Positions 1-35,554 of a DNA stretch of 64,000 nucleotides are shown in pieces. The notes under the pieces were generated by a model. That model did no database searches. It had not been told where the DNA came from and saw nothing but the letters and a program-made list of their open reading frames with translations. Location: positions 68,758,001 to 68,822,000 of the forward strand of contig OZ024744.1 in the NCBI GenBank assembly GCA_964016885.1, read 5' to 3'. The stretch is from Eledone cirrhosa (taxonomy: Eukaryota). The translations under genes and the position numbers were made by a program. Position 1 is the stretch's first letter. Every line of letters starts with the position of its first letter.

Positions 1-2
1 TG

Positions 3-1150
3 ACCCACGTTCCACCGGCCATCGAAATTCCCTGGCTAATAGCGGCTGTCCTCGCCGGCATCGAAGCCAACACGAAAATAATAGCAGTAGCAAAAGAAAA
101 GCAGGAAAACTGGTCCGGATCTGGGATGGAGCTCCTGATCCAAGCGGAACAAAAAAGCATTGAGGAGATCCCAGAGGTAATAGACCTCACTGACGGCAGC
201 CACCTCACGGTAATTGTCGAGGGCAGAAGACCTAGGTGTGTCGTTTGTGGTGAAGGAACCCACCTAAGGGCTTTCTGCCCTCAGGCTAAAAGGTTGAGAC
301 CACCTCTCCTACCCACCCCAGTGACACAACCATCAACACCACCAGTAGCAGATATGGCAGCAAAAACTGTAGCAGCAACAACAGAAGCAACTATAACAGC
401 AACAACCCCAGCAACAGTAGCAAAACCAACACCACCACCACCCAACGCTTCAGAACTAGCACCAGCGCCTACAGCATCCACCACGCCACAACCAAAACTA
501 ACGGCTGTGGAGGATTTTCCACTCCCCGGCCTATCATAACTGGAGACAGATTGTGACGACGAGGAGTGGGAAACGATATCCGGAAAAAAAAAAGAAACCA
601 AAAAAGAAAAAATTCTCTTCCTTCCCCCTCCAAAAACAAAATACAGAGGGAAACAAATAAATTAAGAAACAAAAAAGTTAGGACAGATATGCCACCATCC
701 ACACCAGCATCACCAACCCCATCAACCCAAACACCAACACCATCACCATCATTAACCCCAACACCACCATCACCAACACCACAAAAGTCACCAAAATGCG
801 AAACAGAAACAAACCCACAACAAACGCAAACAAAACAAACCAACCAAAACGATACACACTACACAGCATTAAATTTGAACAACAAGCAATTATTACACTA
901 CATCCAACACAACACCAGCATCACAGAAAAAGACTACACAACAACCCCAAAATTCACACCACCTCCACACATACAAATCACTCGCATCACACAGAAAACG
1001 TACATGACACTAAAACAAAAATTCCCCAAAGACATCGGAGACTTCCGACAAGCACTCTCCAGGAGGATTTATAAGGACGTCCTTCCTCAGGAGGCCACAA
1101 GCAGTGAAAAGGATGGAAAAACCGTCCTTCCCCTACGAGAAGTAAGGTAA
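3..1150 (+). pseudogene. Disrupted ORF1 (gag-like, CCHC zinc knuckle) of copy A
   Basis: CVVCGEGTHLRAFC (CX2CX4HX4C). TAA at 537-539 where copy B has CAA. 1-nt shortening in the A-run at ~584-593. Ends LPLREVR* as in copy B. Confidence 0.88.
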
Positions 1151-1184
1151 GTGGTCTTTCCCATCTTTTCCACTCCTTTTCAAC

Positions 1185-3026
1185 ATGACCTCACTCAGAA
1201 TAGGCAGCATAAATGCGCGTGGCTTGGGGTCGTCATGGAAGCAGGGCCACCTGCTCAACGACCTCAGGTCACTAAACATAGATGTAGTGGCCATCAGCGA
1301 GACCAGAATCTCCGAAGCACAGGCTTTCGCACCGATCTTCGGCGGCTACGATGTGTACGCATCTCCCAGCCGTCCAGGATCGGGGGGAGGAGTTGCTGTG
1401 CTTTTTCGGAGAGGTTTGGATCTTGCCATACGGGCCATCTTCCTGGACCCAGAAGGTAAGTTGGTGGTGCTGGACGTGACCAGCGGAGACGGGCAAGCTT
1501 TCAGGTTAGTGGCCGTCTATGCCCCGACAGGAGCAGGGCGGCCTGATTTCTTCCGGCGTCTGGAGACCTTTCTTGGAACGTCCCGCTCTTTAGTGTTAGT
1601 GGGCGACTGGAACGGGATCTTAGATGCACGCTGGGATTGTGTGGGATTAGTGGATAGGGAAGGAGGGTGCAAGAGTCTCACCAACCTGCTCAGACGTTTT
1701 GAACTGTCTGACAGGTACCGAATGGATTTCCCGAATGTACCAATGTGGACTTGGACAAATCGCATAGGGTCATCCAGATCATATCTAGATAGAGTATTTT
1801 GTAGGGAAATAGATAGGTCTAGCATAGGCTGTCCACAATTCAAGATAGTCAGCTACACGGACGACAAATTCGTGATCTGTGTGCTTGACTTAGATAGGCT
1901 TCATAGACGAGGACCCGGCTACTGGAAGCTAAACGCGTCCTTACCAGCGCGCAAGGCCTACAGAGACCGGATTAGCGAACTAGTTAAGCGGGCGTTGACG
2001 GGGGCCATCGTCAACAACAAGTGGTGGTTTGCTCTGAAAAGAGCAATTAGAATAGAGTCCATTAGGTTTAGTAAGACTTTAGCAATAGAGAAAAATAGAG
2101 CAGAGGGAGAATTAGTTAGAAAATTAGATGAGGCGCTTAGCAAAGGCATCGCGACTGACGTACTTGCGGCGAAATTGGCCCTTGACCAATTCTTCAATGC
2201 AAAGCACGAAGGCTGCGTTGTCAGAGCTAGGGTGCGTGCTCTCAGACACGAGGGGACGAAAGCCGTTCAATGGGCCCGAGTGGCGGAGGCGCGTCGTGGC
2301 AACAAAGCCACGATCCGGTCTTTGGTGGACCACGACGGGCGCATGCTACTCGATCCCGGGCAAATGTGTGAAGCTTTTCAGCGACACTTCGCTCAACTGT
2401 TCGGGGGCAGTGGCGGGCCAGATCGAGGGATAGACTTTAGTGTCTACCTCGACGGACTGCCGCGGCTTTCGGCCACTGAAGCGGAGTGTTGCGAAAAGCC
2501 GATAACAACCGCTGAAGTACGGGATGCAATGACTAGTTGCACAAGGGGTAAATCGCCTGGTTTGGATGGTCTGCCCTATGAACTTTACGTACAAATGCCA
2601 AACTTGTTCGGAGGCCTCTTGGCGGACGTCTACTGCAACTGGCAACAGAACGGGAGAATTCCCAGCTCTGTGAGCCGAGGAGCGGTGGCGCTGCTGAGAA
2701 AGGATCCGAACAAGGGGGATAACATAGATAATTTTAGGCCCATAACTCTGCTAAACACAGAGTTCAAGATTTTGGCCAAGGTGCTAGCAAAGAGGTTGGC
2801 GCTTGTCGTTGGTGGTCTGGTGGGAGAGGCACAGACATGCACCATTCCCGACAGATCCATCCACGACAACCTCCACCTCATGCGATACATCGTAGAGAGG
2901 GTAGCTAGGGAACCTGGCACGGGTGGGTCTTTGATCAATTTAGATCAGTCGAAAGCCTTCGATAGGGTCGACCATCGTTACCTAGCGGCATTTGTACCGT
3001 CCTGTATTGTCCTGTACTGTCCTTAA
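1185..3026 (+). pseudogene. Truncated ORF2 (APE endonuclease + N-terminal RT) of copy A
   Basis: APE motifs SINARG, SETRI, VYAP, VGDWN, SYLDR. RT motifs KSPGLDG, FRPITLLN, DQSKAFDRV. Lacks QG/YxDD because of the deletion. APE terminal motif reads TDD rather than TDH. Confidence 0.92.
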
Positions 3027-3065
3027 TGTCTACTTTATGTAAACCCTTGTGGTTAATAAAGAAAA

Positions 3066-3066
<1 letters not shown>

Positions 3067-3111
<45 letters not shown>
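3067..3111. repeat. (ATT)15 microsatellite: tail/target between copies A and B
   Basis: Direct reading. Confidence 0.97.
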
Positions 3112-3320
3112 GGCGACCTACGTAGGAAATCGTATTATCGTGAGCTCCTCAAAGGTTTGTTATTTCCGTTTGTTTAAAAATTGCCATTTATGGAAAATTT
3201 TATTGTAAACTGTTTATAAGCACACATACATTGTTTTCCGAAAAGGACACCCAAAAAGATTGGGGCCTTGTGCCCAAAATTTTAACTTTTATTATTATCC
3301 AAAAATTTCTTTGAAAAAAA

Positions 3321-5307
3321 ATGGCTAATTCCCCTCTGCACGAAGCAGCTGAAAGCCTTCCTCACAAAATAACACCTCACACCGACACCACCATTGTAAA
3401 TGTTACTACGTTTGCCAACACAAAAAAAAATATAAGCAGTAGCAATATTTTAAATTTGTCTCAGGCAGACATTCATTTCCCGCCATTACAAATGACTGCA
3501 GGTGTTAAACCCTCCACCACCACCACCACCGCGACAACCACGACCACCACCACCACCGCGACAACAGAAACAAAAGAAGAAAAAAATAAATTAACTCGTG
3601 ACGTCGAAATGAAATCAAGCAAAATGGACTCTTCCCCACCAAAGACGACTGACGTCACCACCACCACAACTGAAAATAAAATTAATATTAACGATAGCAA
3701 CAACAACAACAATGACATTATAAAACCGACCCTCAGTTTCGCCATCGTAGCAAAACAATTCGAAGCGTTCACGGTAACTCAAGAAGATTTAGAAAATGCC
3801 AAACAAATGGTAAAGAAAGATGGGTACAGGGTCAGCCTCACCCCCCCCACCTAATAAAATGGAGCATCGGCGCCTGTGCACCGTGTCATATAGAACAATA
3901 AATGTAAAATCGCGCCGAGTGGAACGGGCATCCGAGTCCCAAATCCAAAAAGCTTTGGGACATGTGTGGGCAAGAAAAACCCACATCAGACGTGGGCAAA
4001 AGTATGGAACCGTGGATGTGTTCTTTGAAACACCAGAAGAGGCTAGAGAACACTCCATGGCCCCATTAAAAAGTGACGACCTCACACTCGTCCCAAGCTA
4101 TTGTGGCCAGAGACTCGTAAAGATCAGGGTGACCCACGTTCCACCGGCCATCGAAATTCCCTGGCTAATAGCGGCTGTCCTCGCCGGCATCGAAGCCAAC
4201 ACGAAAATAATAGCAGTAGCAAAAGAAAAGCAGGAAAACTGGTCCGGATCTGGGATGGAGCTCCTGATCCAAGCGGACCAAAAAAGCATTGAGGAGATCC
4301 CAGAGGTAATAGACCTCACTGACGGCAGCCACCTCACGGTAATTGTCGAGGGCAGAAGACCTAGGTGTGTCGTTTGTGGTGAAGGAACCCACCTAAGGGC
4401 TTTCTGCCCTCAGGCTAAAAGGTTGAGGCCACCTCTCCTACCCACCCCAGTGACACAACCATCAACACCACCAGTAGCAGAGATGGCAGCAAAAACTGTA
4501 GCAGCAACAACAGAAGCAACTATAACAGCAACAACCCCAGCAACAGTAGCAAAACCAACACCACTACCACCACCAGAAAAACCAACACCACCACCACCCA
4601 ACGCTTCAGAACTAGCACCAGCGCCTACACCATCCACCACACCACAACCAAAACTAACGGCTGTGGAGGATTTTCCACTCCCCGGCCTATCACAACTGGA
4701 GACAGATTGTGACGACGAGGAGTGGGAAACGATATCCGGAAAAAATAAAAGAAACCAAAAAAGAAAAAATTCTCTTCCTTCCCCCTCCAAAAACAAAATA
4801 CAGAGGGAAACAAATAAACTAAGAAACAAAAAAGTTAGGACAGATATGCCACCATCCACACCAGCATCAACAACCCCATCAACCCAAACACCAACACCAT
4901 CACCATCATTAACTCCAACACCACCATCACCTACACCACAAAAGTCACCAAAATGCGAAACAGAAACAAACCCACAACAAACGCAAACAAAACAAAACAA
5001 CCAAAACGATACACACTACACAGCATTAAATTTGAACAACAAGCAATTATTGCACTACATCCAACACAACACCAGCATCACAGAAAAAGACTACACAACA
5101 ACCCCAACATTCACACCACCTCCACACATACAAATCACTCGCATCACACAGAAAACGTACATGACACTAAAACAAAAATTCCCCAAAGACATCGGAGACT
5201 TCCGACAAGCACTCTCCAGGAGGATTTATAAGGACATCCTTCCTGAGGAGGCCACAAGCAGTGAAAAGGATGGAAAAACCGTCCTTCCCCTACGAGAAGT
5301 AAGGTAA
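3321..5307 (+). CDS. ORF1 gag-like nucleic-acid-binding protein, split by one extra C in the C8 run at 3841-3848
   Basis: Joining ORFs 3321-3854 and 3820-5307 gives RVSLTPPPNKMEHRRLCTVSY, colinear with copy C (RAICKAAKNFFETQEHCTVTY) and copy D. CCHC knuckle and Pro/Thr-rich linker present. Confidence 0.85.
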
Positions 5308-5341
5308 GTGGTCTTTCCCATCTTTTCCACTCCTTTTCAAC

Positions 5342-8300
5342 ATGACCTCACTCAGAATAGGCAGCATAAATGCGCGTGGCTTGGGGTCGTCATGGAAGCA
5401 GGGCCACCTGCTCAACGACCTCAGGTCACTAAACATAGATGTAGTGGCCATCAGCGAGACCAGAATCTCCGAAGCACAGGCTTTCGCACCGATCTTCGGC
5501 GGCTACGATGTGTACGCATCTCCCAGCCGTCCGGGATCGGGGGGAGGAGTTGCTGTGCTTTTTCGGAGAGGTTTGGATCTTGCCATACGGGCCATCTTCT
5601 TGGACCCAGAAGGTAAGTTGGTGGTGCTGGACGTGACCAGCGGAGACGGGCAAGCTTTCAGGTTAGTGGCCGTCTATGCCCCGACAGGAGCAGGGCGGCC
5701 TGATTTCTTCCGGCGTCTGGAGACCTTTCTTGGAACGTCCCGCTCTTTAGTGTTAGTGGGCGACTGGAACGGGATCTTAGATGCACGCTGGGATTGTGTG
5801 GGATTAGTGGATAGGGAAGGAGGGTGCAAGAGTCTCACCAACCTGCTCAGACGTTTTGAACTGTCTGACAGGTACCGAATGGATTTCCCGAATGTACCAA
5901 TGTGGACTTGGACAAATCGCATAGGGTCATCCAGATCATATCTAGATAGAGTATTTTGTAGGGAAATAGATAGGTCTAGCATAGGCTGTCCACAATTCAA
6001 GATAGTCAGCTACACGGACCACAAATTCGTGACCTGTGTGCTTGACTTAGATAGGCTTCATAGACAAGGACCCGGCTACTGGAAGCTAAACGCGTCCTTA
6101 CCAGCGCGCAAGGCCTACAGAGACCGGATTAGCGAACTAGTTAAGCGGGCGTTGACGGGGGCCATCGTCAACAACAAATGGTGGTTTGCTCTGAAAAGAG
6201 CAATTAGAATAGAGTCCATTAGGTTTAGTAAGACTTTAGCAATAGAGAAAAATAGAGCAGAGGGAGAATTAGTTAGAAAATTAGATGAGGCGCTTAGCAA
6301 AGGCATCGCGACCGACGTACTTGCGGCGAAATTGGCCCTTGACCAATTCTTCAATGCAAAGCACGAAGGCTGCGTTGTCAGAGCTAGGGTGCGTTTTCTC
6401 AGACACGAGAGGACGAAAGCCGTTCAATGGGCCCGAGTGGCGGAGGCGCGTCGTGGCAACAAAGCCACGATCCGGTCTTTGGTGGACCACGACGGGCGCA
6501 TGCTACTCGATCCCGGGCAAATGTGTGAAGCTTTTCAGCGACACTTCGCTCAACTGTTCGGGGGCAGTGGCGGGCCAGATCGAGGGATAGACTTTAGTGT
6601 CTACCTCGACGGACTGCCGCGGCTTTCGGCCACTGAAGCGGAGTGTTGCGAAAAGCCGATAACAACCGCTGAAGTACGGGATGCAATGACTAGTTGCACA
6701 AGGGGTAAATCGCCTGGTTTGGATGGTCTGCCCTATGAACTTTACGTACAAATGCCAAACTTGTTCGGAGGCCTCTTGGCGGACGTCTACTGCAACTGGC
6801 AACAGAACGGGAGAATTCCCAGCTCTGTGAGCCGAGGAGCGGTGGCGCTGCTGAGAAAGGATCCGAACAAGGGGGATAACATAGATAATTTTAGGCCCAT
6901 AACTCTGCTAAACACAGAGTTCAAGATTTTGGCCAAGGTGCTAGCAAAGAGGTTGGCGCTTGTCGTTGGTGGTCTGGTGGGAGAGGCACAGACATGCACC
7001 ATTCCCGACAGATCCATCCACGACAACCTCCACCTCATGCGATACATCGTAGAGAGGGTAGCTAGGGAACCTGGCACGGGTGGGTCTTTGATCAATTTAG
7101 ATCAGTCGAAAGCCTTCGATAGGGTCGACCATCGTTACCTAACGGCAGTCCTGAGGGCGGCTGGCTTTGGGCCCGTCTTCAGAGGCTGGATCGCTGCCAT
7201 GCACAGCGACATCTGCTCTGTAGTGAGAGTGAACGGTCACCTTTCGGAACCGTTCAACATCATGCGCTCGGTCCGCCAAGGATGTCCCCTCTCGTCCCTA
7301 TTGTACGTATTGACTCTCGAGCCATTACTGCACAAACTGGAGACGTTGAGGGGGGTCCCGCGCGAACTAGGATGCGGAAGATCCGTGTCAGCATATACCG
7401 ACGATGTCACCGTAGTGGTGTCGAACGCCAAACACATCGAGGCGATCTGTACTACACTAAGAGATTACGAAGCGGTGACTGGAGCAATGATCAACCAGGA
7501 AAAGTCAGTGGGCCTGCAGCTCGGCACCTGGAGAGGCAGGTCCATGCCGTCCAACAGCGTCGTCGGGCGCTGGACGGACGGACCGGTTAAATTGCTAGGG
7601 GTCTGGTTCGGTCCAGACCTCCAGACGGACAAAAACTGGGACGAGGTGACGAGCAGGGTGGCTTCTCTCACCCAGAAATGGGCCGAGAGGAAGCTATCCC
7701 TGAAAGGTCGAGCGGAGGTGGCGAATGCGTACATCGCATCCGTCATCTACTACCGCCTGACCGTCGTACCTTGTCCTAAGCCCCGCCTGACTGCGCTGGA
7801 GCGTTTGCTCTTTCGCTTCTTGTGGAAGGGACGCGCTCCGATGGTCAGGCGGTCCATCTGCTGTCAACACCCGCTACGTGGAGGGCTGGGCATGCCGTGG
7901 CTGATGATGCGCAGACATGCGCTCAGGCTACGACATCTCCACCTCTTCCTCGACGGTGATCAGGTGTGGTCGCCGTTTGCAAGACACGATTTTCCCCAGC
8001 TCTTCTCCTTGACGGAGCTGCAGTCCTGGGTCAAGCGAAGACCGAGAGGGAGCGCCTGGAGACTGGAATGTCTTCAGGCGCTCACAGCCCTCGACCAATC
8101 GGGCAATGTGATCGGTGGAAACTCCGCCTTGGCGTTCTATAGGGGATTAGTGGAGGGGAAGAGCGACGACGTACTTGGAGAAACTCTAGGCGTCGACGAA
8201 AATCAACTAGCCAATCTCTTCGGAAGGACTTTCGGGCCGGGGCCTATGGACAACTTCCAGAAATCCCTGGCCTGGCAGTGCTACCGAGGAGCTTTGCCAG

Positions 8301-8761
8301 TTCGGGATAAACTCTACAGGCATGGAGGTGCCGTCAGCCGGGCATGTCCGAGATGCGCGCAGGGCGACGAAACCGTCCTGTACGTACTCGTCCAGTGTCC
8401 GAGCATTGCTGACTTGTGGGTTTATGTCGAACACCTGCTGTCACGTGTAGGACGGATCCAGCTATCAGCTGAGTCCATCGTGAGGATTGCCCCGCCCCCT
8501 TCCTTTAGCCTGGAAGGGCAGGCAGTTTTTATCTGTCTGGTGGCCATGGCGAAAGAGATAGTATCGTGGACACGTTTGAAAGGGCTGAAGACGAGCCCTT
8601 ACCTCTTCGGTGATGCCCTGATTAACTTTTTCAAATTTCATTTGAAAAGGAAAATCAGGGTAGAGAGGGAAGTGCTCTCTTCCCAGCATTTTGTTGAAAG
8701 ATGGGTGAGAGAAGCAAGTATGGCCCGAATGAATGGGCCTTCTCTGAGTATGTGTCTGTAA
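5342..8761 (+). CDS. ORF2 polyprotein: APE endonuclease, reverse transcriptase, C-terminal zinc-finger region (1139 aa)
   Basis: APE motifs including YTDHKF. RT motifs RQGCPLS, AYTDDV, KLLGVWF. C-terminal CPRC...C with the His position read as Tyr. Confidence 0.96.
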   Translation: MTSLRIGSINARGLGSSWKQGHLLNDLRSLNIDVVAISETRISEAQAFAPIFGGYDVYASPSRPGSGGGVAVLFRRGLDLAIRAIFLDPEGKLVVLDVTSGDGQAFRLVAVYAPTGAGRPDFFRRLETFLGTSRSLVLVGDWNGILDARWDCVGLVDREGGCKSLTNLLRRFELSDRYRMDFPNVPMWTWTNRIGSSRSYLDRVFCREIDRSSIGCPQFKIVSYTDHKFVTCVLDLDRLHRQGPGYWKLNASLPARKAYRDRISELVKRALTGAIVNNKWWFALKRAIRIESIRFSKTLAIEKNRAEGELVRKLDEALSKGIATDVLAAKLALDQFFNAKHEGCVVRARVRFLRHERTKAVQWARVAEARRGNKATIRSLVDHDGRMLLDPGQMCEAFQRHFAQLFGGSGGPDRGIDFSVYLDGLPRLSATEAECCEKPITTAEVRDAMTSCTRGKSPGLDGLPYELYVQMPNLFGGLLADVYCNWQQNGRIPSSVSRGAVALLRKDPNKGDNIDNFRPITLLNTEFKILAKVLAKRLALVVGGLVGEAQTCTIPDRSIHDNLHLMRYIVERVAREPGTGGSLINLDQSKAFDRVDHRYLTAVLRAAGFGPVFRGWIAAMHSDICSVVRVNGHLSEPFNIMRSVRQGCPLSSLLYVLTLEPLLHKLETLRGVPRELGCGRSVSAYTDDVTVVVSNAKHIEAICTTLRDYEAVTGAMINQEKSVGLQLGTWRGRSMPSNSVVGRWTDGPVKLLGVWFGPDLQTDKNWDEVTSRVASLTQKWAERKLSLKGRAEVANAYIASVIYYRLTVVPCPKPRLTALERLLFRFLWKGRAPMVRRSICCQHPLRGGLGMPWLMMRRHALRLRHLHLFLDGDQVWSPFARHDFPQLFSLTELQSWVKRRPRGSAWRLECLQALTALDQSGNVIGGNSALAFYRGLVEGKSDDVLGETLGVDENQLANLFGRTFGPGPMDNFQKSLAWQCYRGALPVRDKLYRHGGAVSRACPRCAQGDETVLYVLVQCPSIADLWVYVEHLLSRVGRIQLSAESIVRIAPPPSFSLEGQAVFICLVAMAKEIVSWTRLKGLKTSPYLFGDALINFFKFHLKRKIRVEREVLSSQHFVERWVREASMARMNGPSLSMCL

Positions 8762-9003
8762 ATTAAAGGTGGAAAACTGGGAGAGGGCACTTGCCCTGGT
8801 GGTCAGGGCCACTGTGTTCTTTTAATGGGCTTTCTCCACAAATGTCCCTTGGAAGTCTCCCCCCTATTGGGGAATTTTTCTTTGTTATTTTATTTCAACC
8901 TCTGTTTTTTTACACGCAGAAATGCCCATTTGTACCGTCCTGTATTGTCCTGTACTGTCCTTAATGTCTACTTTATGTGAACCCTTGTGGTCAATAAAGA
9001 AAA

Positions 9004-9004
<1 letters not shown>

Positions 9005-9034
<30 letters not shown>
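9005..9034. repeat. (ATT)10 microsatellite between copies B and C
   Basis: Direct reading. Confidence 0.97.
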
Positions 9035-9249
9035 GAATGCCATGGTTGACGGAGGCTCGGCTCTGTAAGGTATAGTAATTTTTAACCGTTAAAACAATTG
9101 TAAATTGTTTAAAACTTGAACCAAATTGTTGATAAAGACACCCTCCTCCTCGTGAGAGGGGTCTTTCTGTCCGTTATTTGGCCCTTCGGGGTTAAATAAT
9201 CAGTTATTGGGGTTTTGTACCCAAAATTTCATTTTAAACAAAAAACAAC

Positions 9250-11347
9250 ATGGCTACGAAAAAGAAATTTCATACGTCACTCCCACTCATTCCGTCTTCT
9301 TCTTCCTCAATCATCACTACAGCAGAGAGAAGATTGTCTCTCTCCCTCCCTTCTTTAAATGTGTCTCTCTCCCTCCCTTCTCTTTCGCAAGTGACGAAAG
9401 AAAAGAAAAGTCTCGTGCAAAGCGTGCAAGGTTTCTCCACGACGACGACGACAGCGACGAAACAGGTGTGCGGGAAATACGAAAACCCAGTTCATTCGTC
9501 TGACGTCAGGAATAATAGCAGTAGCAGCCGTAATAACAACAGCAACAGTGACAATGAAAACAACAGTAGCAGCCGCAACAGCATCACCAGCAGCATAAAC
9601 AACAACAGCATTAGCAGCAGCAACACCAACAACAACCACAGCAACAGCGGCGGAGGCAGTAGTCGTAGTACCTGCAGCAACAACAAAAGTACCAGCAGCT
9701 CTGACGACAACAACAACAGCAGAGAAAAACCAATCTCATTTGCAGGTATTGCGAAAAACTTGGAAACAATCCTCATAACAAATGAGGAATTAGAGGAAGC
9801 GAAGAAGATGGTGACAAAGAACGGACACCGAGCAATCTGCAAGGCAGCGAAAAATTTTTTCGAAACCCAAGAGCACTGTACGGTCACGTACCGTACAGTA
9901 AGTACAAAATCCCGTAGGGTGGAAAGAGCCACAGAGGCCCAAATACAAAAAGCCTTGGGGTCTGTGTGGCAGAGGAAAACGCACATCACCCGAGGCAAAA
10001 AATACGCCACCGTAGACGTACTTTTTGCCACACCCCAGGAGGCAAAGGCCCAATCAGTAGTGACCCTAAGGAGCGAGGAAATGGTGTTGGTGCCCTCCTA
10101 CTGCGGGCAAAAAATTGTGAGGGTCAAACTGACCCACGTCCCCCCCCGGAATGACCCCTTCTTGGCTGGCCGCGTCTGTCCTCGTCGGAATCGAGGACAA
10201 AACAACTGTACTGCAAGTACAGAAAAAAGTAAGAGAAGATTGGGTCGGCTCCTCCATTGAGATGCTAATCCAAACCAACCAGGAGTGCATCGAAGCTATC
10301 CCGGATGTGATAGACTTCGATAACGGCACTCAACTGCCCATAAGTGTTGAGGGCAAACGCCCGAAATGCTTTCGCTGTGGATCGAAGACTCACCTCAGGG
10401 CCTTCTGCAACGAGAAGACCCTGAGAAAGGAGAAAACCCCCCTCCTTCCGAATCCGGCTCCACGGCTACCAGCAACAGGACAAGCGGCAACCAGGAACGA
10501 TAGGTCCGTGGCACCCATACCCACTCCACGGAAATCAAAGACAGCAGCAGCAGTGGAAATATTAACAACAACAACAGCAATACCAAATGCAGCTGCAACA
10601 GAGACTCCAGTGCAAACATCACCAACAACAACAAGTGAAAGAGTGGAGCTGGTACCCCTCCCCGACCTTACAGAATCAGACATGGAGTGTGAGGTGGGAG
10701 AGGGATGGCAAAAGGTCGCAAGAAGGCACAAACGCAGAAGCAGCGCATCGTCGCCTTTGAAAAGGGAGGAAAGAAATGAGAAAAGGGTAAAGTCTACTGC
10801 AAAGAGACCCACAGCAGCAACACCACCAACACCATCACCACCCACACCAGCACCACCATCACCACCGGCGACAACCCCACCGCCAACAACACCTTCAACA
10901 CCACCACCACAAGCACCAACATCGCAAACACAACAACAAAACACACACACCCAGCAACAACGACAAGAAAATAGTAGAACCACACCCCACCCCCAGAAAA
11001 ACAAATGCACGGCAATAAATACACACAACAAGAAACTAATGACTTACATAATTGAACACACAGACATTTCACAACAGGACTACATAATACCAGCACCAAT
11101 CAAAACGCCAACTAACATAAGACTGCTAAAAATAGCACAGAAACAATACACAAACATTAAAACGAAATTCCCCAACGCAGTTGGTGATTTCAGGGACCTA
11201 GGAGGAACCATCAATCGAAGAGTATACTCAGACATTCTCTTAGAAGAGCCGACGACCAGCCGAAGGGACGATTCAACGGTCCCTTCACCAGACGATCAAG
11301 TGAAAAGGGATGTAAAAACCATCCCTCCTCTACCAAAAGTACGGTAA
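9250..11347 (+). CDS. ORF1 gag-like protein of copy C, split by one extra C in the C8 run at 10140-10147
   Basis: ORFs 9250-10260 and 10151-11347 join as THVPPGMTPSWL, versus copy B THVPPAIEIPWL. CCHC knuckle CFRCGSKTHLRAFC. Confidence 0.85.
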
Positions 11348-11382
11348 GTGGTCTTTCCCATCTTTTCCACTCTATTTTAAAC

Positions 11383-14300
11383 ATGACCTCACTCAGAATA
11401 GGCAGCATAAATGCGCGTGGCTTGGGGTCGTCATGGAAGCAGGGTCACCTGCTCAACGACCTCAGGTCACTAAACATAGATGTAGTGGCCATCAGCGAGA
11501 CCAGAATCTCCGAAGCACGGGCCTTCGCACCGATCTTCGGCGGCTACGATGTGTACGCATCTCCCAGCCGTCCTGGATCGGGTGGAGGAGTTGCTGTGCT
11601 TTTTCGGAGAGGTTTGGATCTCGCCATACGGGCCATCTTCCTGGACCCAGAGGGTAAGCTGGTGGTGCTGGACGTGACCAGCGGAGACGGGCAAGCTTTC
11701 AGGCTAGTGGCCGTCTATGCCCCGACAGGAGCAGGGCGGCCTGATTTCTTCCGGCGTCTGGAGACCTTTCTTGGAACGTCCCGCTCTTTAGTGTTAGTGG
11801 GCGACTGGAACGGGATCTTAGATGCACGCTGGGACTGTGTGGGATTAGCGGATAGGGGTGGAGGGTGCAAGAGCCTCACCAACCTGCTCAGGCGTTTTGA
11901 ACTGTCTGACAGGTACCGATTGGATTTCCCGAATGTGCCAATGTGGACTTGGACAAACCGCATAGGGTCATCCAGATCATATCTAGATAGAGTATTTTGT
12001 AGGGAAATAGATAGGTATAGCATAGGCTGTCCACAATTCAAGATAGTCAGTTACACGGAACACAAATTCGTGACCTGTGTGCTTGACTTAGATAGGCTTC
12101 ATAGACGAGGACCCGGCTACTGGAAGCTAAACGCGTCCTTACCAGCGCGCAAGGCCTACAGAGACCGGATTAGCGAACTAGTTAAGCGGGCGTTGACGGG
12201 GGCCATCGTCAACAACAAGTGGTGGTTTGCTCTGAAAAGAGCGATTAGAATAGAATCGATTAGGTTTAGTAAGGCTTTAGCAATAGAGAAAAATAGAGCA
12301 GAGGGAGAACTAGTTAAAAAATTAGACGAGGCGCTTAGCAAAGGCATTGCGACCGACGTGCTTGCGGCGAAATTGGCCCTTGACCAATTCTTCAATGCAA
12401 AGCACGAAGGCTGCGTTGTCAGAGCTAGGGTGCGTGCTCTCAGACACGAGGGGACGAAAGCCGTTCAATGGGCCCGAGTGGCGGAGGCGCGTCGTGGCAA
12501 CGAAGCCACGATCCGGTCTTTGGTGGACCACGACGGGCGCATGCTACTCGATCCCGGGCAAATGTGTGAAGCTTTTCAGCGACACTTCGCTCAGCTGTTC
12601 GGGGGCAGCGGTGGGCCGGGTAGAGGGATGGACTTTAGTGTCTACCTCGACGGACTGCCGCGGCTCTCGGCCACTGAGGCGAAGTGTTGCGAAAAGCCGA
12701 TAACAGCCGCTGAAGTAAGGGAGGCAATGACTGGCTGCACAAGGGGTAAATCGCCTGGTTTGGATGGTCTGCCCTATGAACTTTACGTACAGATGCCAGA
12801 CTTGTTCGGAGGCCTCTTGGCGGACGTCTACTGCAACTGGCAACAGAACGGGAGAATTCCCAGTTCTGTGAGCCGAGGAGCGGTGGCACTGCTGAGAAAG
12901 GATCCGAACAAGGGGGATAACATAGAAAATTTCCGGCCCATAACTCTGCTAAACACAGAGTTTAAGATTTTGGCCAAGGTGCTAGCAAAGAGGTTGGCGC
13001 TTGTCGTTGGTGGTCTGGTGGGAGAGGCGCAGACATGCGCCATTCCCGACAGATCCATCCACGACAACCTCCACCTCATGCGATACATCGTAGAGAGGGT
13101 AGCTAGGGAACCTGGCACGGGTGGGTCCTTGATCAATTTAGATCAGTCGAAAGCTTTCGATAGGGTCGACCATCGTTACCTAGCGGCAGTCCTGAGGGCG
13201 GCTGGCTTTGGGCCCGTCTTCAGAGGCTGGATCGCTGCCATGCACAGCGACATCTGCTCTGTGGTGAGAGTGAACGGTCACCTGTCGGAACCGTTCAACA
13301 TCATGCGCTCGGTCCGCCAAGGATGTCCCCTCTCGTCCCTCTTGTACGTATTGACTCTCGAGCCATTACTGCACGAACTGGAGACGTTGAGGGGAGTCCC
13401 GCGCGAACTAGGATGCGGAAGATCCGTGTCAGCATATGCGGACGATGTCACCGTAGTGGTGTCGAACGCCAAACACATCGAGGCGATCGGCACTACACTA
13501 AGAGAATACGAAGCGGTGACAGGAGCAATGATCAACCAGGAAAAGTCAGTGGGCCTGCAGCTCGGCACCTGGAGAGGCAGGTCCATGCCGTCCAACAGCG
13601 TCGTCGGGCGCTGGACGGACGGACCGGTTAAATTGCTAGGGGTCTGGTTCGGTCCGGACCTCCAGACGGACAAAAACTGGGACGAGGTGACGAGCAGGGT
13701 GGCTTCTCTCACCCAGAAATGGGCGGAGAGGAAGCTATCCCTGAAAGGTCGAGCGGAGGTGGCTAACGCGTACATCGCGTCTGTCATCTGCTACCGCCTA
13801 ACCGTCGTACCTTGTCCTAAGCCTCGCCTGACTGCGCTGGAGCGTTTGCTCTTTCGCTTTTTGTGGAAGGGACGTGCTCCGATGGTCAGGCGGTCCATCT
13901 GTTGTCAACACCCGCTACGTGGAGGGCTGGGCATGCCGTGGCTGATGATGCGCAGGCACGCGCTCAGGCTACGACATCTCCACCTCTTCCTCGACGGTGA
14001 TCAGGTGTGGTCGCCGTTTGCTAGACGCGTTTTTCCCCAGCTCGTTTCCTTGACGGAGCTGCAGTCCTGGGTCAAGCGAAGACCGAGAGGGAGCGCCTGG
14101 AGACTGGAATGTCTTCAGGCGCTCACAGCCCTCGACCAATCGGGCAATGTGATCGGTGGAAACTCCACCTCGGCGTTCTATAGAGGATTAGTGGAGGGGA
14201 AGAGCGACGACGTACTTGGGGAAACTCTAGGCGTCGACGAAAATCAACTAGCCAATCTCTTCGGAAGAACTTTCGGGCCAGGGCCTATGGACAACTTCCA

Positions 14301-14802
14301 GAAATCTCTGGCCTGGCAGTGCTACCGAGGAGCCTTGCCAGTTCGGGATAAACTCTACAGGCATGGAGGTGCCGTCAGCCGGGCATGTCCGAGATGCGCG
14401 CAGGGCGACGAAACCGTCCTGCACGCACTCGTCCAGTGTCCGAAAATTGCTGACTTGTGGGTTTATGTCGAACACCTGCTGTCGCGTTTAGGACGGATCC
14501 AGCTATCATCTGAGTCTATCGTGAGGATTTCCCCGCCCTCCTCCTTTAGCCGGGAAGGGCAGGCAGTTTTTATCTGTCTGGTGGCCATGGCGAAAGAGAT
14601 AGTATGGTGGACACGTTTGAAAGGGCTGAAGACGAGCACTTACCTCTTCGGTGATGCTCTGATTGACTTTTTCAAATTTCATTTGAAAAGGAAAATCAGA
14701 GTAGAGAAGGAAGTGCTCTCTTCCCAGCATTTTGTTGAAAGATGGGTGAGAGAAGAAAGAATGGCCCGAGTGAATGGGCCGACTCTGAGTATATATCTGT
14801 AA
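11383..14802 (+). CDS. ORF2 polyprotein APE-RT-zinc finger (1139 aa) of copy C
   Basis: AYADDV RT site. CPRCAQGDETVLHALVQC zinc finger. APE terminal motif reads YTEH. Confidence 0.96.
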   Translation: MTSLRIGSINARGLGSSWKQGHLLNDLRSLNIDVVAISETRISEARAFAPIFGGYDVYASPSRPGSGGGVAVLFRRGLDLAIRAIFLDPEGKLVVLDVTSGDGQAFRLVAVYAPTGAGRPDFFRRLETFLGTSRSLVLVGDWNGILDARWDCVGLADRGGGCKSLTNLLRRFELSDRYRLDFPNVPMWTWTNRIGSSRSYLDRVFCREIDRYSIGCPQFKIVSYTEHKFVTCVLDLDRLHRRGPGYWKLNASLPARKAYRDRISELVKRALTGAIVNNKWWFALKRAIRIESIRFSKALAIEKNRAEGELVKKLDEALSKGIATDVLAAKLALDQFFNAKHEGCVVRARVRALRHEGTKAVQWARVAEARRGNEATIRSLVDHDGRMLLDPGQMCEAFQRHFAQLFGGSGGPGRGMDFSVYLDGLPRLSATEAKCCEKPITAAEVREAMTGCTRGKSPGLDGLPYELYVQMPDLFGGLLADVYCNWQQNGRIPSSVSRGAVALLRKDPNKGDNIENFRPITLLNTEFKILAKVLAKRLALVVGGLVGEAQTCAIPDRSIHDNLHLMRYIVERVAREPGTGGSLINLDQSKAFDRVDHRYLAAVLRAAGFGPVFRGWIAAMHSDICSVVRVNGHLSEPFNIMRSVRQGCPLSSLLYVLTLEPLLHELETLRGVPRELGCGRSVSAYADDVTVVVSNAKHIEAIGTTLREYEAVTGAMINQEKSVGLQLGTWRGRSMPSNSVVGRWTDGPVKLLGVWFGPDLQTDKNWDEVTSRVASLTQKWAERKLSLKGRAEVANAYIASVICYRLTVVPCPKPRLTALERLLFRFLWKGRAPMVRRSICCQHPLRGGLGMPWLMMRRHALRLRHLHLFLDGDQVWSPFARRVFPQLVSLTELQSWVKRRPRGSAWRLECLQALTALDQSGNVIGGNSTSAFYRGLVEGKSDDVLGETLGVDENQLANLFGRTFGPGPMDNFQKSLAWQCYRGALPVRDKLYRHGGAVSRACPRCAQGDETVLHALVQCPKIADLWVYVEHLLSRLGRIQLSSESIVRISPPSSFSREGQAVFICLVAMAKEIVWWTRLKGLKTSTYLFGDALIDFFKFHLKRKIRVEKEVLSSQHFVERWVREERMARVNGPTLSIYL

Positions 14803-15064
14803 ACTAAAGGTGGAAAACTGGGAGAGGGCACTTGCCTTGGTGGTCAGGGTCATTGTGGCTTTTTACTGGGCTTTCTCCACAAATGTCCCTCCGAAGTCTC
14901 CCCCCTATTGGGGAATTTTTCATTGTTATTTTCATTGTTATTTTTGTTACATCCTCTGTTTTTGTTTTTTTACACGCAGAAATGCCCATTTGTACCGTCC
15001 TGCATTGTCCTGCACTGTCCTTAATGTCTACTTTATGTAAACCCTTGTGGTTAATAAAGAAATC

Positions 15065-15198
15065 ATTATTATTATTAGTTCTTATTATTATTATTCGTTC
15101 TTATTATTAGTTCTTATTATTTTTATTAGTTCTTCTTCTTATTATTATTATTATTAGTTCTTCTTCTTCTTATTATTATTATTATTGTTATTGTTATT
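15065..15198. repeat. Compound (TTA)n/TTAGTTC tract between Tx1 copy C and the R4/Dong element (tail to tail)
   Basis: Direct reading. Confidence 0.9.
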
Positions 15199-18100
15199 CC
15201 TTGAATCTCAATCATTGATGTTGGTTAACTGGAAAGTCCGTTGGATTGAATATCAAGCCACTACCTGCAGCCTCAGATATTCAGGACGTATCGGAGGGTT
15301 CTTGCTGTTCCAAGCAAGCATGCCTTTTGAAGCGTTCCAAAAAGCGTGAAGGGGCCGATTTTCTTTAACCATCCCTGGAAACTTTTGGAGATAGTCCCCA
15401 GTGCGCCTATGACAATCGGGATCACTTTGACTTCATGGCAGTTCCAAATCCTTTTCACCTCCTACTTTAGGTCCTGGTATCGCTTAATTTTCTCCCTCTC
15501 CTTCTCTTGCACTCTCGTGTCGAACGGGCAGGCCACATCCACAATCAGGCACGATCTTTTTTCTTTGTCCACAACCACCAGGTCAGGTCTATTGTGTTCC
15601 AGTTTTTTGTCCGTCTGTATCCTAAAATCCCACAGCACCTTCACCTGATTGTTCTCCATCACCGCCTCTGGCCTATGCTCATACCATTTCTCAGAATGTG
15701 GTAGATTGTTTACTTTGCACAGGTGCCAGTGGATCACCCTGCCCTTCACATCATGTCTCCAGCCCTTATAGTGGGTCTGGGCTAGGTGTTTACACTCGGA
15801 CACAATGTGAGCCACAGTCTCCTCTCTCTCTCCACAGATCCTGCACAGTGGGCTAGCCTCCTCCTTGTAGATATGGTGCTTCAACCACTTCGTTTTGAGG
15901 GCCTGCTCCTGCGCAGCCATTAGCATTCCTTCTGTAGCCTTTTTGAGGTCTCCTCTTCTCAACCAGTTCCATGTCTGTGGATCTCTAAATTCAGTTTTCT
16001 CAAAGAAGGTACTATGAAGGGATTTTCCCTTAAGGCTGCTCTTCCTCCTTGATGTTATTTCCTCCCTGGACATCCCCTGGCCTACTGTCCCCTCCTTCAG
16101 TACAGTTCTGAGCATTGGCTCCTTACTATAGGTCACGTATTTGTATAGGTTGTTTTTCTCCATCTGAACACAGTCCTCTATGCTGATAAGACCTCTTCCA
16201 CCCTCAGATCTCCTTAGGTAGAGTCTATCGACATCACTCCTCTTGTGGAACATGTTGTAGATAGTCAATAGCTTCCTAGTCTTCCTATCCATTTCTTTTT
16301 GTTCAGCAACATTCCATCTCAGAATTCCCGCACTGTACCTAATAATAGACACAGCTCGGGAATTTACTGCGCTTATGGCATTTCTGCTGTTCAGATGTGA
16401 CTTCAATACGCTCCTTACTCTCCGAATGTATTCAGTTCTTAACAATTCCTTCATTTTTTGGTTCTTTATGCCATCAGCCTCCAGAACGCCCAAATACTTG
16501 TATCCTTCCTCAGAGTCAATTTCCTTTATCATCTCACCTGTTGGTATCTGGATCCCGTTACTTCTGCTCAACCTACCCCCCTTCATCACAATGACTCCAC
16601 ATTTACCAATACCAAACTGCATACATATATCACTGCTGAAAATACGGACAGTGTCAACAAGCACATCCAACTCCTTCTCACTTTTCCCGAAGAGCTTAAG
16701 ATCGTCCATGAAGAGGAGGTGATTGATGGTAAGCTCTCCCCTTCCCAACTTGTATCCTGCTCTCACTTTTCGCAGCATAATGGTCAAGGGCATCAGGGCA
16801 AGGACAAACAACAGAGGGGACAGGCTATCTCCCTGGAAGATACCTCTCTTGATCTTCACGCTTCCCAAGGATACTCCAGTTGATGTCAACTCTGTCTCCC
16901 AGGACCCCATACTCCTGCCCAGCAACTGTCTGATGTTATCTGCCACCCTGAAGATCTCCAGGCTTTTGGTGATCCAGAAATGAGGCACCATGTCAAATGC
17001 CTTTCTGTAGTCTATCCATCCCATGGCAAGATCAGTGTGTCTCCTCCTGCAATTCCCCATTACCATCTTATCAATAAGCAACTGGTCCTTTGTACCACGT
17101 GACTTCTTTCGGCATCCTTTCTGTTCGTCCGGTAACAAGTTGTTTGTGTGGAGGTGATGGCAGATTTCCTCAGACACAATGCTCGTCAACAGTTTCCACA
17201 TTACGGGCAGACATGTGATAGGTCTATAGTTGGTAGCATCATTACCCTTGATTCGGTCTTTCATTATCAGAACTGTGGTACCTTTTGTCAACCACTCTGG
17301 CACCTCACCCGACACCAAGCAGTCATTGAACATGGCCGTCAGCTTCGGGTGGAGGGATGTTAAATGTTTAATCCAATACCCCTGCACACCATCTGGGCCT
17401 GGTGATTTCCAGTTGGTTAGTTTTTTGGCTTGCCCCTTAAGAGTTTCAACTGTGATACTCAAATCAGTCTGTTGCTGTGCCTGCTCACCGATCTCCCTCT
17501 GTACTGTCTCAATCCACCCTGCCTGGGCATTGTGTCTAACATCCCGCTCCCATATTCCTCTCCAGAATGTTTTAGTTTGTTCCGCCCCAGGGATCAAGTC
17601 GTTGCCTCCTTCTTTGGCCTCAAGCTGTCCAAACAGCATCTTCTGGTTGTTGTCGAACATGCGGTTCTGTTTATACTGACTGACTCTGTTCTCGTATCGC
17701 CTGATTTTGGCACTCTTTGCTACAATGCGTTGCTTCAATTCCTCTATGATAATATTTAGCTTTTTACTCCTAGTTTTGTATTTTATTTCCAGTCTATTTT
17801 TAGTGCCTATGTTTTTTAGTGTCCCATTCAGTAGTGACTCAAGCTTTCCTATGTCATTTCTCATTTCCCCGATTTGCCCACTCAGTCGCTTCTTCCACCA
17901 CGGCTCTGCTCTTTCTTGTCTGTTGTTTCCTCTCGCTTTTATACCAAGTAGTTTCCTCACCGTATTTGCTGTTGCTCTGAGGATATTGTTGCACTGGTGA
18001 AGGCTCCTCGCCTCAAGGTATGGGATGACTTTGTTTACCTTAGCTGTTGTTTCTTTTAACTTTTTCCTGTCTACAAATCTTAGGTTCATAGGTCTCCCAC

Positions 18101-22224: not shown

Positions 22225-24272
22225 CACTCAGTCAAAATGACAAAATTTCAACCCCAACATCTGCAACATCTACAACAACAACAACAACTGCGGCATCAAA
22301 CAGTAAACAACGACAACATCAGCAACACCGTTTGTAGCAGTGTGGCAAAAACAACAGCACTAACAACAAGACCAGTAGCAGCAGTAGCGGCAGCAATAAT
22401 GTGGTCCCAAATATAGAGACAGTGCTAGTCACGGAGGAGGAGATGGCAGTCGCATGTGCCGAGGTGACAATAAATGACAATAGAGTTTCTCAGAAATCTC
22501 CGCCCGATTTCTTCAAAGACCAGCAGCTGCGTACTGTGACTTACCACACCGTAAGCATTATGCGCTCGATCCGCCAGCGTTTCACCCTTTCGTCCCTCTT
22601 GTACGTACTGGCACTCGAGCTGTTACTGCACAAATTGAAGACGATGAGGTGGGGTCCCACGCGAACTGGGATGCGGGAGGTCCTTGTCAGCTTACTTAGA
22701 CGACGTCACCGTGGTGGTGTCGAGCACCAAACACGTCCAGATGTTCGGCACCGCTCTCAAGGAATACGAAGCGGTAACAGGAGCAAAGATAAACCAGGAA
22801 AAGTCGGTGGGCTTGCAACTCGGCACCTGGAGAGGCAAATTCATGCCGTCCGACAGCGTCGTGGGGAGCTGGACGGAATTACCGGTTAAATTGCTCGGGT
22901 CTGGTTCGGTCCGGACATCCAGATGGAGAAAAACTGGAGCGAGGTGACGAGCAGGGTGGCCTCTCTCACCCAGAATTGGGCCGAGAGGAGGCTGTCTCTG
23001 AAAGGTGGGGTGGAGTTGGCGAATGCGCACATCGCGTCCGTCATCTGCTACCGCCTGACCGTCGTACCTTGCCGCCGTCCAACTCTGACCAAAATGGAGC
23101 GCCTTCTCTTCCGCTTTTTGTGGCAGGGATGTGCTCCCATGCTCAGACGATCCATTTGCTGACAACACCCCCCGTTTCGTGGAGGACTAGGCATGCCGTG
23201 GCTGATGATGCGCAAACATACGCTGAGGCTGCGACATCTCTGGTGCTTCCTTGACGGTGAACAGGTGTGGTCGCCGTGTGCCAGACGCGCTTTTCCCCAG
23301 CTCGTTTCCTTAACGGAGCTGCAGTCCTGGATCAGGAAAAGACTGAGGGATAGCGCTTGGAAGCTTCCAAGCGCTCATCGCCCTCTACCAGCTGGGCACT
23401 AGTATCGGTGGAACATCCACCTCGGCGTTCTATAGAGGGCTAGTGGGGGCAAAGAGCGAAGACATGTTCGGGGAGACCCTGGGCGTCGAAGACGATCAGC
23501 TGTTCGCTCTCTTCAAGAGAACTTTCAGACCGGGGCCTATGGATAACTTCCAAAAATCCCTGGCCTGGCAGTGCTACCGGGGAGCGTTGCCGGTTCGGGA
23601 TAAGCTCTACAGGCACGGAGGTGCTGTCAGCTGAGCCTATCCGAGATGCGCGCAGGGCGACGAAACCATCCTGCACGCACTCGTTCAGTGCCCGAGGATT
23701 GCTGACTTGTGGAGCTATGTCAAACAGCTGCTGTCGCGTTTAGGACGGATCCGGTTATCGACTGAGTCCATTGTGCAGATAGCCCCGCCATCTTCCTTTA
23801 AAGAGGAGGAAGGGCAGGCAGTTTTCATCTGCCTGGTGGCCATGGCGAAAGAGATTGTGTGATGGACAAGGTTGAAAGGGTTGAAGACGGACACTTTCCT
23901 CTTCGGCCAATCCCTGATTAACTTTTTCAAGTTTCACTTGAAGAGGAAAATCAGGATGGAGGGGCAAGTGCTGTCTTCTAGTAAGCTTGTTGAAAGGTGG
24001 GTGAAAGTGGCGAGTTTGGTCCGAGTGAACGGGCCCGCTCTGATTATGCGCCTGTAGACTGAGGAGTGGGAAAACTGAGAGAGGGCGCTTGCCCTGGTGG
24101 TCAGGGTGGCCATCGCCTTTTTGCGTGGTTTTCGCCACGAGTGACCCTCGGAGGTTTCCCCCTTTTTTTTATTTCTAGCCCAATTTTGTTATAACCTGCT
24201 TACACGACCAAGACCCACTTTGTGTCGTCCTGTACTGTTCTGTGCCGTCTCTATGTAGCCAATAAAGAAACC
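22225..24272 (+). mobile_element. Degenerate Tx1 copy D: ORF1 N-terminal fragment fused to RT C-terminal half
   Basis: NIETVLVTEEE...LRTVTYHTVS joins IMRSIRQ at ~22557. Then AYLDDV, QEKSVGLQLGTW, MDNFQKSLAWQC with frameshifts and stops. AATAAA and (ATT) tail. Confidence 0.88.
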
Positions 24273-24287
24273 ATTATTATTATTATT

Positions 24288-24556
24288 GTTCTTTGTGTCT
24301 CAGACATTGATGTTATTAAGTGGAAAGTTTGTTGAAATGAATATCAAGCCACTATCTGCAACCTCAGACATTCAGGACGTATCGGAGGGTTCCTGCTGTT
24401 TCCAGCAAGCATGCCTTTTGAAGTGTTCCGAAAAACGGGGCTGGACTAATCTTCTTTAACCATTGTTGAAAACTCTTTGAGATAGTACCTAGTGCTCCTA
24501 TGATAATCGGGACGACCTTAATCTCATGGCAGTTCCAAATCCTTTTTAACTCCCAC
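24288..24556 (-). mobile_element. 5'-truncated R4/Dong 3' fragment
   Basis: Homologous to 15200-15465. Encodes WELKRIWNCHEIKVVPIIIGALGTIS...LQKACL. Flanked by (TTA)n. Confidence 0.85.
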
Positions 24557-24603
24557 CATTATTATTATTATTATTATTATTATTGCCGTTATTGTTATTA
24601 TTA

Positions 24604-35550: not shown

Positions 35551-35554
35551 GATC

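What the first reader, a model, noticed from the sequence alone, without database searches (positions are those of the whole stretch)
3112..14802. Exchangeable 5'UTR/ORF1 modules on a near-identical ORF2
Seen: ORF2 of copies B and C is colinear (1139 aa each) and well above 90% identical by eye. Their 5'UTRs are largely unalignable. Their ORF1s share only about half the residues in the core (e.g. RRVERASESQIQKALG vs RRVERATEAQIQKALG) and have unrelated N-termini. Identity switches on abruptly at the ORF1 stop (GGTAAGTGGTCTTTCCCATC), which is also the putative splice donor. Copy D carries a third ORF1 type. Known: mammalian L1 recruits new 5'UTRs and LINE ORF1s can be swapped. Inference: recent modular recombination, possibly favoured by co-transcription of tandem copies.
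Basis: partly seen in the sequence, partly recalled or inferred. Interest (0 to 1): 0.7.

Follow-up and report, generated by a model that had tools for sequence, protein, structure and literature searches.

The report
Hybrid LINE with captured first gene
One of two neighbouring jumping genes (LINEs) belongs to a hybrid family of over two thousand copies whose front half comes from an older, now scarce family and whose enzyme half comes from its neighbour's family; the join sits exactly on a splice-start motif, so RNA splicing likely made it once, though a copying slip is nearly as likely.

Summary
B and C ORF2 are 95.6% identical in protein (dS 0.10), while their ORF1 cores are near synonymous saturation (pS 0.77). 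It is no assembly artefact: about 2,055 B-type and 2,271 C-type ORF1 ends exist genome-wide. I found the donor: family E carries C's 5'UTR and ORF1 on its own ORF2 (78-87% to B/C). Trees put C inside E for ORF1 and inside B for ORF2; congruence is rejected (AU p=1.5e-6 and 8e-60). Other recombinants are sporadic, with scattered breakpoints. The join falls exactly on E's 5' splice-donor motif and after a CAG in B, and E-then-B tandems exist, so splicing of a read-through RNA is my best mechanism (0.45). A microhomology join during reverse transcription is almost as likely (0.42): no other canonical splice join was found (0 of 72) and no RNA data exist. Recombinant LINE families are known. The scan reported this junction before on other DNA (e1-9503403).

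The parts
1..3066 (+). Copy A: B-family LINE (starts about 1,010 nt before the window); ORF2 cut at 2990 by an internal deletion and joined to the end of the 3'UTR
   Evidence: 98.2% to B over 3,018 columns; upstream part in L400 and deletion joint
3067..3111 (+). (ATT)n tract between A and B: the insertion target of these families
   Evidence: Sequence; full-length B, C and E copies elsewhere start directly after (ATT)n
3112..3320 (+). B 5'UTR
3321..5307 (+). B ORF1 (low-complexity N-terminus, RNA-binding core with CCHC knuckle, C-terminal domain); +1 slip in a C-run near 3841-3849
   Evidence: ORFs 3321-3854 and 3820-5307; run lengths; Atlas look-alikes are CCHC/ZCCHC3-like proteins, score 0.91-0.93
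5259..5307 (+). B ORF1 tail: the CAG (5259-5261) and the last codons that family C took from B
5304..5341 (+). B inter-ORF spacer starting with a consensus 5' splice-donor motif; 5' arm of a predicted long-range helix
   Evidence: 4,209 exact copies of a 29-nt spacer pattern; duplex -41.5 kcal/mol
5342..8761 (+). B ORF2: APE endonuclease, RT, zf-RVT; intact
   Evidence: Pfam; best PDB matches are human L1 ORF2p, E 6e-52
8768..8795 (+). 3' arm of the predicted helix just after the B ORF2 stop
   Evidence: Best partner of the spacer among all 59-nt windows of B; mean -17.0, SD 6.2; predicted only
9006..9034 (+). (ATT)n tract between B and C
9035..11300 (+). E-derived module of C: 5'UTR (9035-9249) and nearly all of ORF1; private +1 C at 10141-10148
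   Evidence: 85-96% to E copy L297 per 200 nt; 5'UTR 199 of 218 to two E copies; ORF1 tree
11300..11301 (+). Founding chimeric junction: end of the E part at E's donor site, start of the B part after CAG
   Evidence: 2,271 genomic matches; bridged by contigs of runs X5 and X7
11301..11382 (+). B-derived ORF1 tail (with one extra G that keeps B's frame), ORF1 stop at 11345-11347, and B-type spacer
11383..14802 (+). C ORF2, B lineage; intact
14803..15110 (+). C 3'UTR (helix arm 14809-14836) and degenerate (ATT)n tail
22230..24290 (+). Copy D: older sister family, ORF1 5' fragment joined by a large deletion to the 3' half of its own ORF2; not a module on the B/C ORF2

Best explanation
Copy C belongs to a hybrid LINE family whose 5'UTR and ORF1 come from an older family (E) and whose ORF1 tail, spacer, ORF2 and 3'UTR come from the B lineage; it was likely founded once, and likely by splicing of a read-through RNA from an E copy into a B copy lying in tandem behind it. 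Shown: both parents, the nucleotide of the join, its coincidence with E's donor motif and a CAG in B, E-then-B tandems, thousands of descendants. Inferred: E's donor was spliced to the last CAG before B's spacer, removing about 6 kb; B's intact ORF2 then retrotransposed the RNA; a one-base gain restored B's frame in the tail; keeping B's spacer likely mattered because it is predicted to pair with B's 3'UTR. The hybrid origin itself I hold at about 0.92; the confidence given is for origin plus splicing.
For: Donor family: 66 of 69 pattern hits carry C-type ORF1 followed by a different spacer and an ORF2 only 78-87% like B/C. Trees of 37 rows: C nests in E for ORF1, in old B for ORF2; AU rejects B+C on ORF1 (p 1.5e-6) and C+E on ORF2 (p 8e-60). 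Timing overlaps: E copies lie 3.1% and the oldest C copies 3.3% from their group majority. The join is out of register and duplicates the homologous ORF1 end, unlike homologous crossing-over. E's site is the only AG|GT-R-AG motif in the first 2.7 kb of 4 of 4 E copies, and B's CAG is the last YAG before the spacer. 3 of 15 E copies are followed directly by a B 5' end. Cognate spacer/3'UTR duplexes beat B-E cross pairs by 6-8 kcal/mol.
Against: No other canonical splice join from these donors: 0 of 48 B/C variants, 0 of 24 E/D/C variants, 0 copies of the spacer-less ORF1-ORF2 join; these patterns miss joins with T at the first or second new base. B's acceptor is purine-rich with a poor pyrimidine tract. 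A clean splice would shift the tail's frame; 2,271 copies have the extra base and only 5 lack it, of which 4 carry derived alleles and 1 (L327) is basal but ambiguous. Three deletions start within 0-3 nt (up to 6 with microhomology) of the B/C donor without being splice products (L267, L404, L332). The donor is predicted to be buried in a helix. The AG at the join is also a 2-nt microhomology. One D-family 3' arm pairs strongly with every spacer, so helix specificity is incomplete.
Confidence: 0.45

Rival explanations
1. Same single capture, but made during retrotransposition: a B cDNA that stopped 43 nt inside ORF1 jumped to an E RNA, or annealed by a 2-nt microhomology into the neighbouring genomic E copy and replaced its 3' part. 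The donor site is hit because it is also the base of the predicted helix, or by chance under selection for a complete ORF1 and a B spacer.
For: Such joins are common here: 76 junctions in 1.23 Mb of element sequence, 7 at true 3' ends; of 68 internal ones tallied, 38 have 2 nt or more of overlap. Several join an interrupted upstream element to a 5'-truncated downstream one (L186, L279, L300, L339). Three non-canonical deletions land at the B/C donor. The route is the one proposed for ORF1 shuffling in PMC4120745 (section 13 read).
Against: Landing exactly on the donor is roughly a 1-2% event if breakpoints are uniform over the last 150-300 nt of ORF1 (my estimate). The excess of deletions at the donor (2 seen against about 0.5 expected's rate) is weak and post hoc. 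No founder locus or intermediate among the 69 E-end hits.
Confidence: 0.42
2. One reading: 5'UTR/ORF1 modules are swapped repeatedly onto a shared ORF2 at a hotspot in the spacer.
For: One D 5' module plus D spacer on a B-type ORF2 (L185); later-C ORF1 back on E ORF2 (L290); B ORF1 on C-lineage ORF2 (L208/L134, L280).
Against: None of these is seen amplified (only the L185 type was counted: 1 copy); breakpoints are scattered (ORF2 nt 63-270, 141-201, 576-1212, 978-1212, the ATG, inside ORF1); 0 reciprocal spacer joins; all inspected C copies share one junction.
Confidence: 0.06
3. No recombination: ORF1 simply evolves much faster than ORF2, or the chimera is an assembly error.
For: ORF1 N-termini are low-complexity and variable.
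Against: Synonymous sites differ about eightfold between the ORFs (pS 0.77 vs 0.092); the donor family exists; AU tests; 2,271 dispersed junction copies; contigs from two other studies bridge the junction.
Confidence: 0.02

Closest known systems
Recombinant L1 families and 5'UTR recruitment in mammals (PMC5872511, passages read)
   Same: A new LINE family arises by joining parts of two simultaneously active families, and a new 5' end is followed by strong amplification.
   Different: There the captured part is a non-homologous 5'UTR or the break lies in mid-ORF2; here the 5'UTR and nearly the whole ORF1 moved, the join is out of register, and both parents survive in the genome.
ORF1 transfer between CR1 and L2 lineages (PMC4120745, abstract and section 13 read)
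   Same: Tree-like ORF2, reticulate ORF1; proposed route is insertion of a 5'-truncated element into another between ORF1 and ORF2.
   Different: Those events are ancient and inferred from domain types; this one is recent and resolved to the base.
Splice-born SVA subfamilies, SVA_F1 (MAST2) and the chimpanzee STK40 subfamily (PMC6139936, abstract read)
   Same: A retrotransposon subfamily founded by one splicing event that supplies a new 5' part.
   Different: SVA is non-autonomous and captured a host exon; here the captured part would be another LINE's protein-coding module, and splicing is not shown.
mRNA/L1 chimeras ending at splice donors, RAP1GDS1/L1PA2 (bioRxiv 10.1101/2025.02.02.635956, passages read; supplements closed)
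   Same: 5' partner ends precisely at a donor and joins a LINE that keeps ORF2.
   Different: One or two copies each, host exons rather than a LINE ORF1; none founded a family of thousands.
Microsatellite-targeting Tx1 elements Kibi (TC)n, Koshi (TTC)n and crocodilian Tx1 (PMC4494074, passages read)
   Same: L1-group ORF2, insertion into a microsatellite, tandem stacks from sequential insertion.
   Different: Target here is (ATT)n; no ORF1 capture is mentioned in the passages seen.

Membership tests
L1-group LINE | ORF2 with N-terminal APE endonuclease, RT and C-terminal zinc finger, preceded by ORF1 | tested here: met
   Pfam Exo_endo_phos, RVT_1, zf-RVT; best PDB hits human L1 ORF2p; Atlas
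Tx1 clade | RT groups with named Tx1 elements in a tree | not tested
   No named Tx1 reference was fetched; the label is recalled and rests on anatomy
Tx1 clade | Target preference for a repeat | tested here: met
   Full-length B, C and E copies whose 5' end was located start directly after (ATT)n; most 3' ends run into it
Tx1 clade | ORF1 with CCHC knuckle (recalled feature) | tested here: met
   CX2CX4HX4C motif in B and C; Atlas look-alikes CCHC/ZCCHC3-like; Pfam gave no zf-CCHC hit
Recombinant LINE family | Incongruent trees on either side of a breakpoint | tested here: met
Recombinant LINE family | Both parents active at the same time | tested here: met
   E 3.1% and oldest C 3.3% from group majority; old B end branches 0.02-0.03
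Recombinant LINE family | Chimera amplified with one shared junction | tested here: met
   2,271 matches; 58 of the oldest type
Splice-born retrotransposon subfamily (SVA_F1 type) | 5' part ends at a splice donor of its source | tested here: met
Splice-born retrotransposon subfamily (SVA_F1 type) | 3' part begins after a usable acceptor | tested here: inconclusive
   CAG present, pyrimidine tract poor, one extra base 6-8 nt downstream
Splice-born retrotransposon subfamily (SVA_F1 type) | Donor is used in RNA; source locus identified | not testable with these tools
   No run on record as RNA holds the stretch; founder locus not found

The most novel reading that the evidence does not exclude
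An autonomous LINE family of over two thousand copies was born when the spliceosome joined one LINE's promoter and ORF1 to the ORF2 of the next LINE in a tandem stack. Microsatellite targeting builds the stacks, a conserved donor at the ORF1 end makes the 5' half an exon, and a spacer-3'UTR helix decides which hybrids survive: exon shuffling between transposons.
Probability: 0.4. Interest if true: 0.68.

Novelty: new variant of a known kind. Interest (0 to 1): 0.45.

Why it matters
How LINEs acquire new 5'UTRs and ORF1s is usually inferred from old events with the donor lost. Here the donor family, the recipient, the exact junction and a graded series of descendants are in one genome, so the route can be tested. 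It also shows that an ORF1 protein only 45-65% identical works with a foreign ORF2 well enough for the hybrid (2,271 junction matches) to equal its B parent (2,055) and far outnumber the donor's matching ends (69, older and so undercounted). If splicing made it, it extends splice-born subfamilies from SVA to autonomous LINEs.

Tried and rejected
Spacer as a 52/53-nt intron fusing ORF1 to ORF2: 0 intron-less copies against 4,209 spacer copies, and the phase differs in D/E; not supported. Founder form without the extra base: 5 copies, 4 derived, 1 ambiguous; inconclusive. An intermediate with E's stop codon followed by B's tail: 0 of 69. RNA: no RNA holder listed; run X1 (guessed RNA, 0.07 share) gave only short ORF2 pieces and no joint at the donor among the rows shown; no evidence either way. 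Rfam and ARAGORN: nothing in the window, so no RNA-gene target. Atlas search of the C ORF1 core fragment gave no usable hit. Homotypic versus mixed tandems (12 vs 4 of 16 pairs, typed from position lists) do not separate mechanisms. Total copy number of D and E was not obtained. Literature searches (listings; two returned nothing) showed no description of this family or of a LINE-to-LINE splice-born family; Repbase and subscription journals were not searchable.

Full report
What the window holds. The first 24 kb are a stack of LINEs separated by (ATT)n: A (B-type, internally deleted), B (3112-9005), C (9035-about 15064), an unrelated single-ORF element on the minus strand, and the deleted copy D. 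ORF2 has APE endonuclease, RT and zf-RVT domains and its best solved relatives are human L1 ORF2p. The genome is 3.0 Gb; the window is G000:C28:68758001-68822000. The Tx1 label is recalled from anatomy and target preference, not from a tree.

The observation. B and C ORF2 share 1089 of 1139 residues, dS 0.098, evenly along the gene (0.07-0.13 in six blocks). The ORF1 core shares 102 of 173 residues with pS 0.77, and the C-terminal domain 43 of 97. Faster protein evolution cannot explain an eightfold gap at synonymous sites. The 5'UTRs share one short patch at the level of the best shuffle. Both window ORF1s carry +1 slips in C-runs; C's is private, B's run is highly variable among copies.

Families, not an artefact. 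A 29-nt spacer pattern has 4,209 exact matches; the B ORF1 end 2,055 and the C junction 2,271. Contigs from two further studies bridge the junction (X5: 10720-13089, 16 differences; X7: 11082-11348, 27 differences); both are low-depth, and the best holder may be the assembly's own sample.

The donor. Searching with D's ORF1 gave an older family with its own ORF2, about 80% to B/C. One locus (L186) also held a C-type ORF1 on a foreign ORF2. A pattern for that end found 69 places: 66 with C-type ORF1, 2 D-type, 1 untyped, all followed by a D/E-type spacer and an ORF2 78-87% like B/C. Full-length copies of this family E start with C's 5'UTR. Along C, identity to an E copy is 0.85-0.96 up to 11300 and 0.73-0.90 after it, the mirror image of the comparison with B.

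Trees. I used 37 rows: the two window copies and 35 of the 59 long loci fetched, leaving out most with large deletions. ORF2 groups B and C (support 100, branch 0.14) apart from E and D; ORF1 nests C inside E, with D next and B far. AU tests reject B+C on ORF1 (p 1.5e-6) and C+E on ORF2 (p 8e-60); the groups were named from the other gene's pattern. A 57-row tree of the first 1.5 kb of ORF2 places the oldest C copies among old B copies, so B's ORF1 is the original partner. E copies are 3.1% and the oldest C copies 3.3% from their majority state: E was active when C arose. Young B and C copies reach 99% or more; no equally young E copy was among those sampled.

The junction. C equals E up to 11300 and old B from B's position 5262, with one extra base 6-8 nt later. 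The join duplicates the homologous ORF1 end, so it is not an in-register crossover. On the E side it is the cut point of a consensus 5' splice-donor motif, the only such motif in the first 2.7 kb of 4 of 4 copies; on the B side it follows the last YAG before the spacer. The shared AG is equally a 2-nt microhomology. E copies directly followed by B exist (3 of 15), and 29 of the first 100 spacer copies on C1 stand in same-strand tandems under 7.2 kb.

Results against splicing. Among 48 B/C ORF1 ends with an altered donor, none is a canonical splice join; 46 are point changes or tiny deletions and 2 (L267, L404) are microhomology deletions starting at the donor. A third (L332) keeps the first donor bases and joins just after a CAG in ORF2. 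0 of 24 E/D/C variants are splice joins. These patterns miss joins with T in the first or second new position, and RNAs that lose ORF2 would rarely be copied, so the zeros are not decisive. Microhomology joins are common, including joins between an interrupted element and a 5'-truncated neighbour. Only 5 copies lack the extra base; 4 carry derived alleles, and basal copies mostly have it. Weighing these, splicing 0.45 and a reverse-transcription join 0.42.

How exchangeable? In 173 typed loci, 10 were flagged as mixing ORF1 type and ORF2 alleles; 4 show clear switches (L056, L134, L280, L314), all inside ORF2 at different places. L185 has a D 5' module and spacer on B ORF2 and is the only match of its pattern; the reverse has none. 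L290 has a later-C ORF1 on E ORF2. Recombination is thus ongoing but sporadic, and one amplified chimera was found.

Why the spacer stays with ORF2. Following a lead from earlier scan notes, I found that the spacer's best partner in B is the stretch just after the ORF2 stop (-41.5 kcal/mol; mean -17.0, SD 6.2), and B-B and E-E pairs beat B-E cross pairs by 6-8 kcal/mol, though one D arm pairs well with all. This is a prediction. It would explain why C kept B's spacer, and it also offers the rival a reason for breaks at this site.

Known context. Recombinant L1 families and 5'UTR recruitment are known (PMC5872511, passages); ORF1 transfer and the truncated-insertion route are proposed in PMC4120745 (abstract, section 13); splicing founded SVA subfamilies (PMC6139936, abstract) and made single mRNA/L1 chimeras (bioRxiv 10.1101/2025.02.02.635956, passages; its supplements were closed and may list further cases). 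Tx1 microsatellite targeting: PMC4494074 (passages). PMC13282606 (passages) lists recently active L1-Tx1 and Dong-R4 families in an octopus without describing ORF1; PMC9115989 and PMC11203168 (passages) do not describe this. I reached the chimera and donor reading before consulting earlier notes (stated); note e1-9503403 reports the same junction on other DNA, which is not independent support.

Verdict. Real, recent, single-origin capture of a 5'UTR plus ORF1 by a LINE ORF2 lineage, with both parents preserved. The kind of event is known; the donor-site junction is the unusual part and its mechanism is open. Interest 0.45.

Noticed in passing
window 15462-18506 (-): Intact 1014-aa single-ORF element with RT, a CCHC finger and a restriction-like endonuclease motif, flanked by (ATT)n on both sides; looks like R4/Dong (recalled), so two unrelated LINE clades share the same microsatellite target.
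   Followed up: partly
window 24273-24560: About 290-nt fragment 82% like the 3' end of the R4/Dong-like element (15181-15465), again between (ATT)n tracts after copy D; similar fragments follow several fetched copies.
   Followed up: no
window 5304-5335 with 8768-8795; 11344-11375 with 14809-14836: Predicted long-range helix that closes ORF2 into a loop and buries the donor motif; also present in D and E with changed letters.
   Followed up: partly
window 3841-3849: C-run in B ORF1 is hypervariable among copies (segment lengths 11-25 nt; the in-frame length is the commonest at 9 of 40 readings), so many B copies have a broken ORF1.
   Followed up: partly
L267, L404, L332: Three internal deletions begin at or just after the B/C donor without being canonical splice products; possibly a break hotspot at the helix base.
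   Followed up: partly
window 8901-8920 and 14970-14980: The 3'UTR holds a strong acceptor-like site (T-rich tract then CAG); no copy joining the donor to it was seen among the 48 checked.
   Followed up: partly
L181, L288, L300: D or E copies whose ORF2 3' end or 3'UTR switches to B/C type: further single recombinants.
   Followed up: no
window about 39000-58300 and 59700-61500: Large satellite with offsets in multiples of 46 nt, strongly C-skewed, with internal inversions near 55700-57100 and an inverted block at 59900-61500.
   Followed up: no
window 35552-36350 and 58448-59520: Arrays of an about 37-nt unit in opposite orientation on either side of the large satellite.
   Followed up: no
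window 36796-37161 (+) and 63482-63856 (-): Short ORFs resembling an RTE-type LINE fragment and the C-terminus of an LTR-retrotransposon integrase (recalled likeness, not searched).
   Followed up: no
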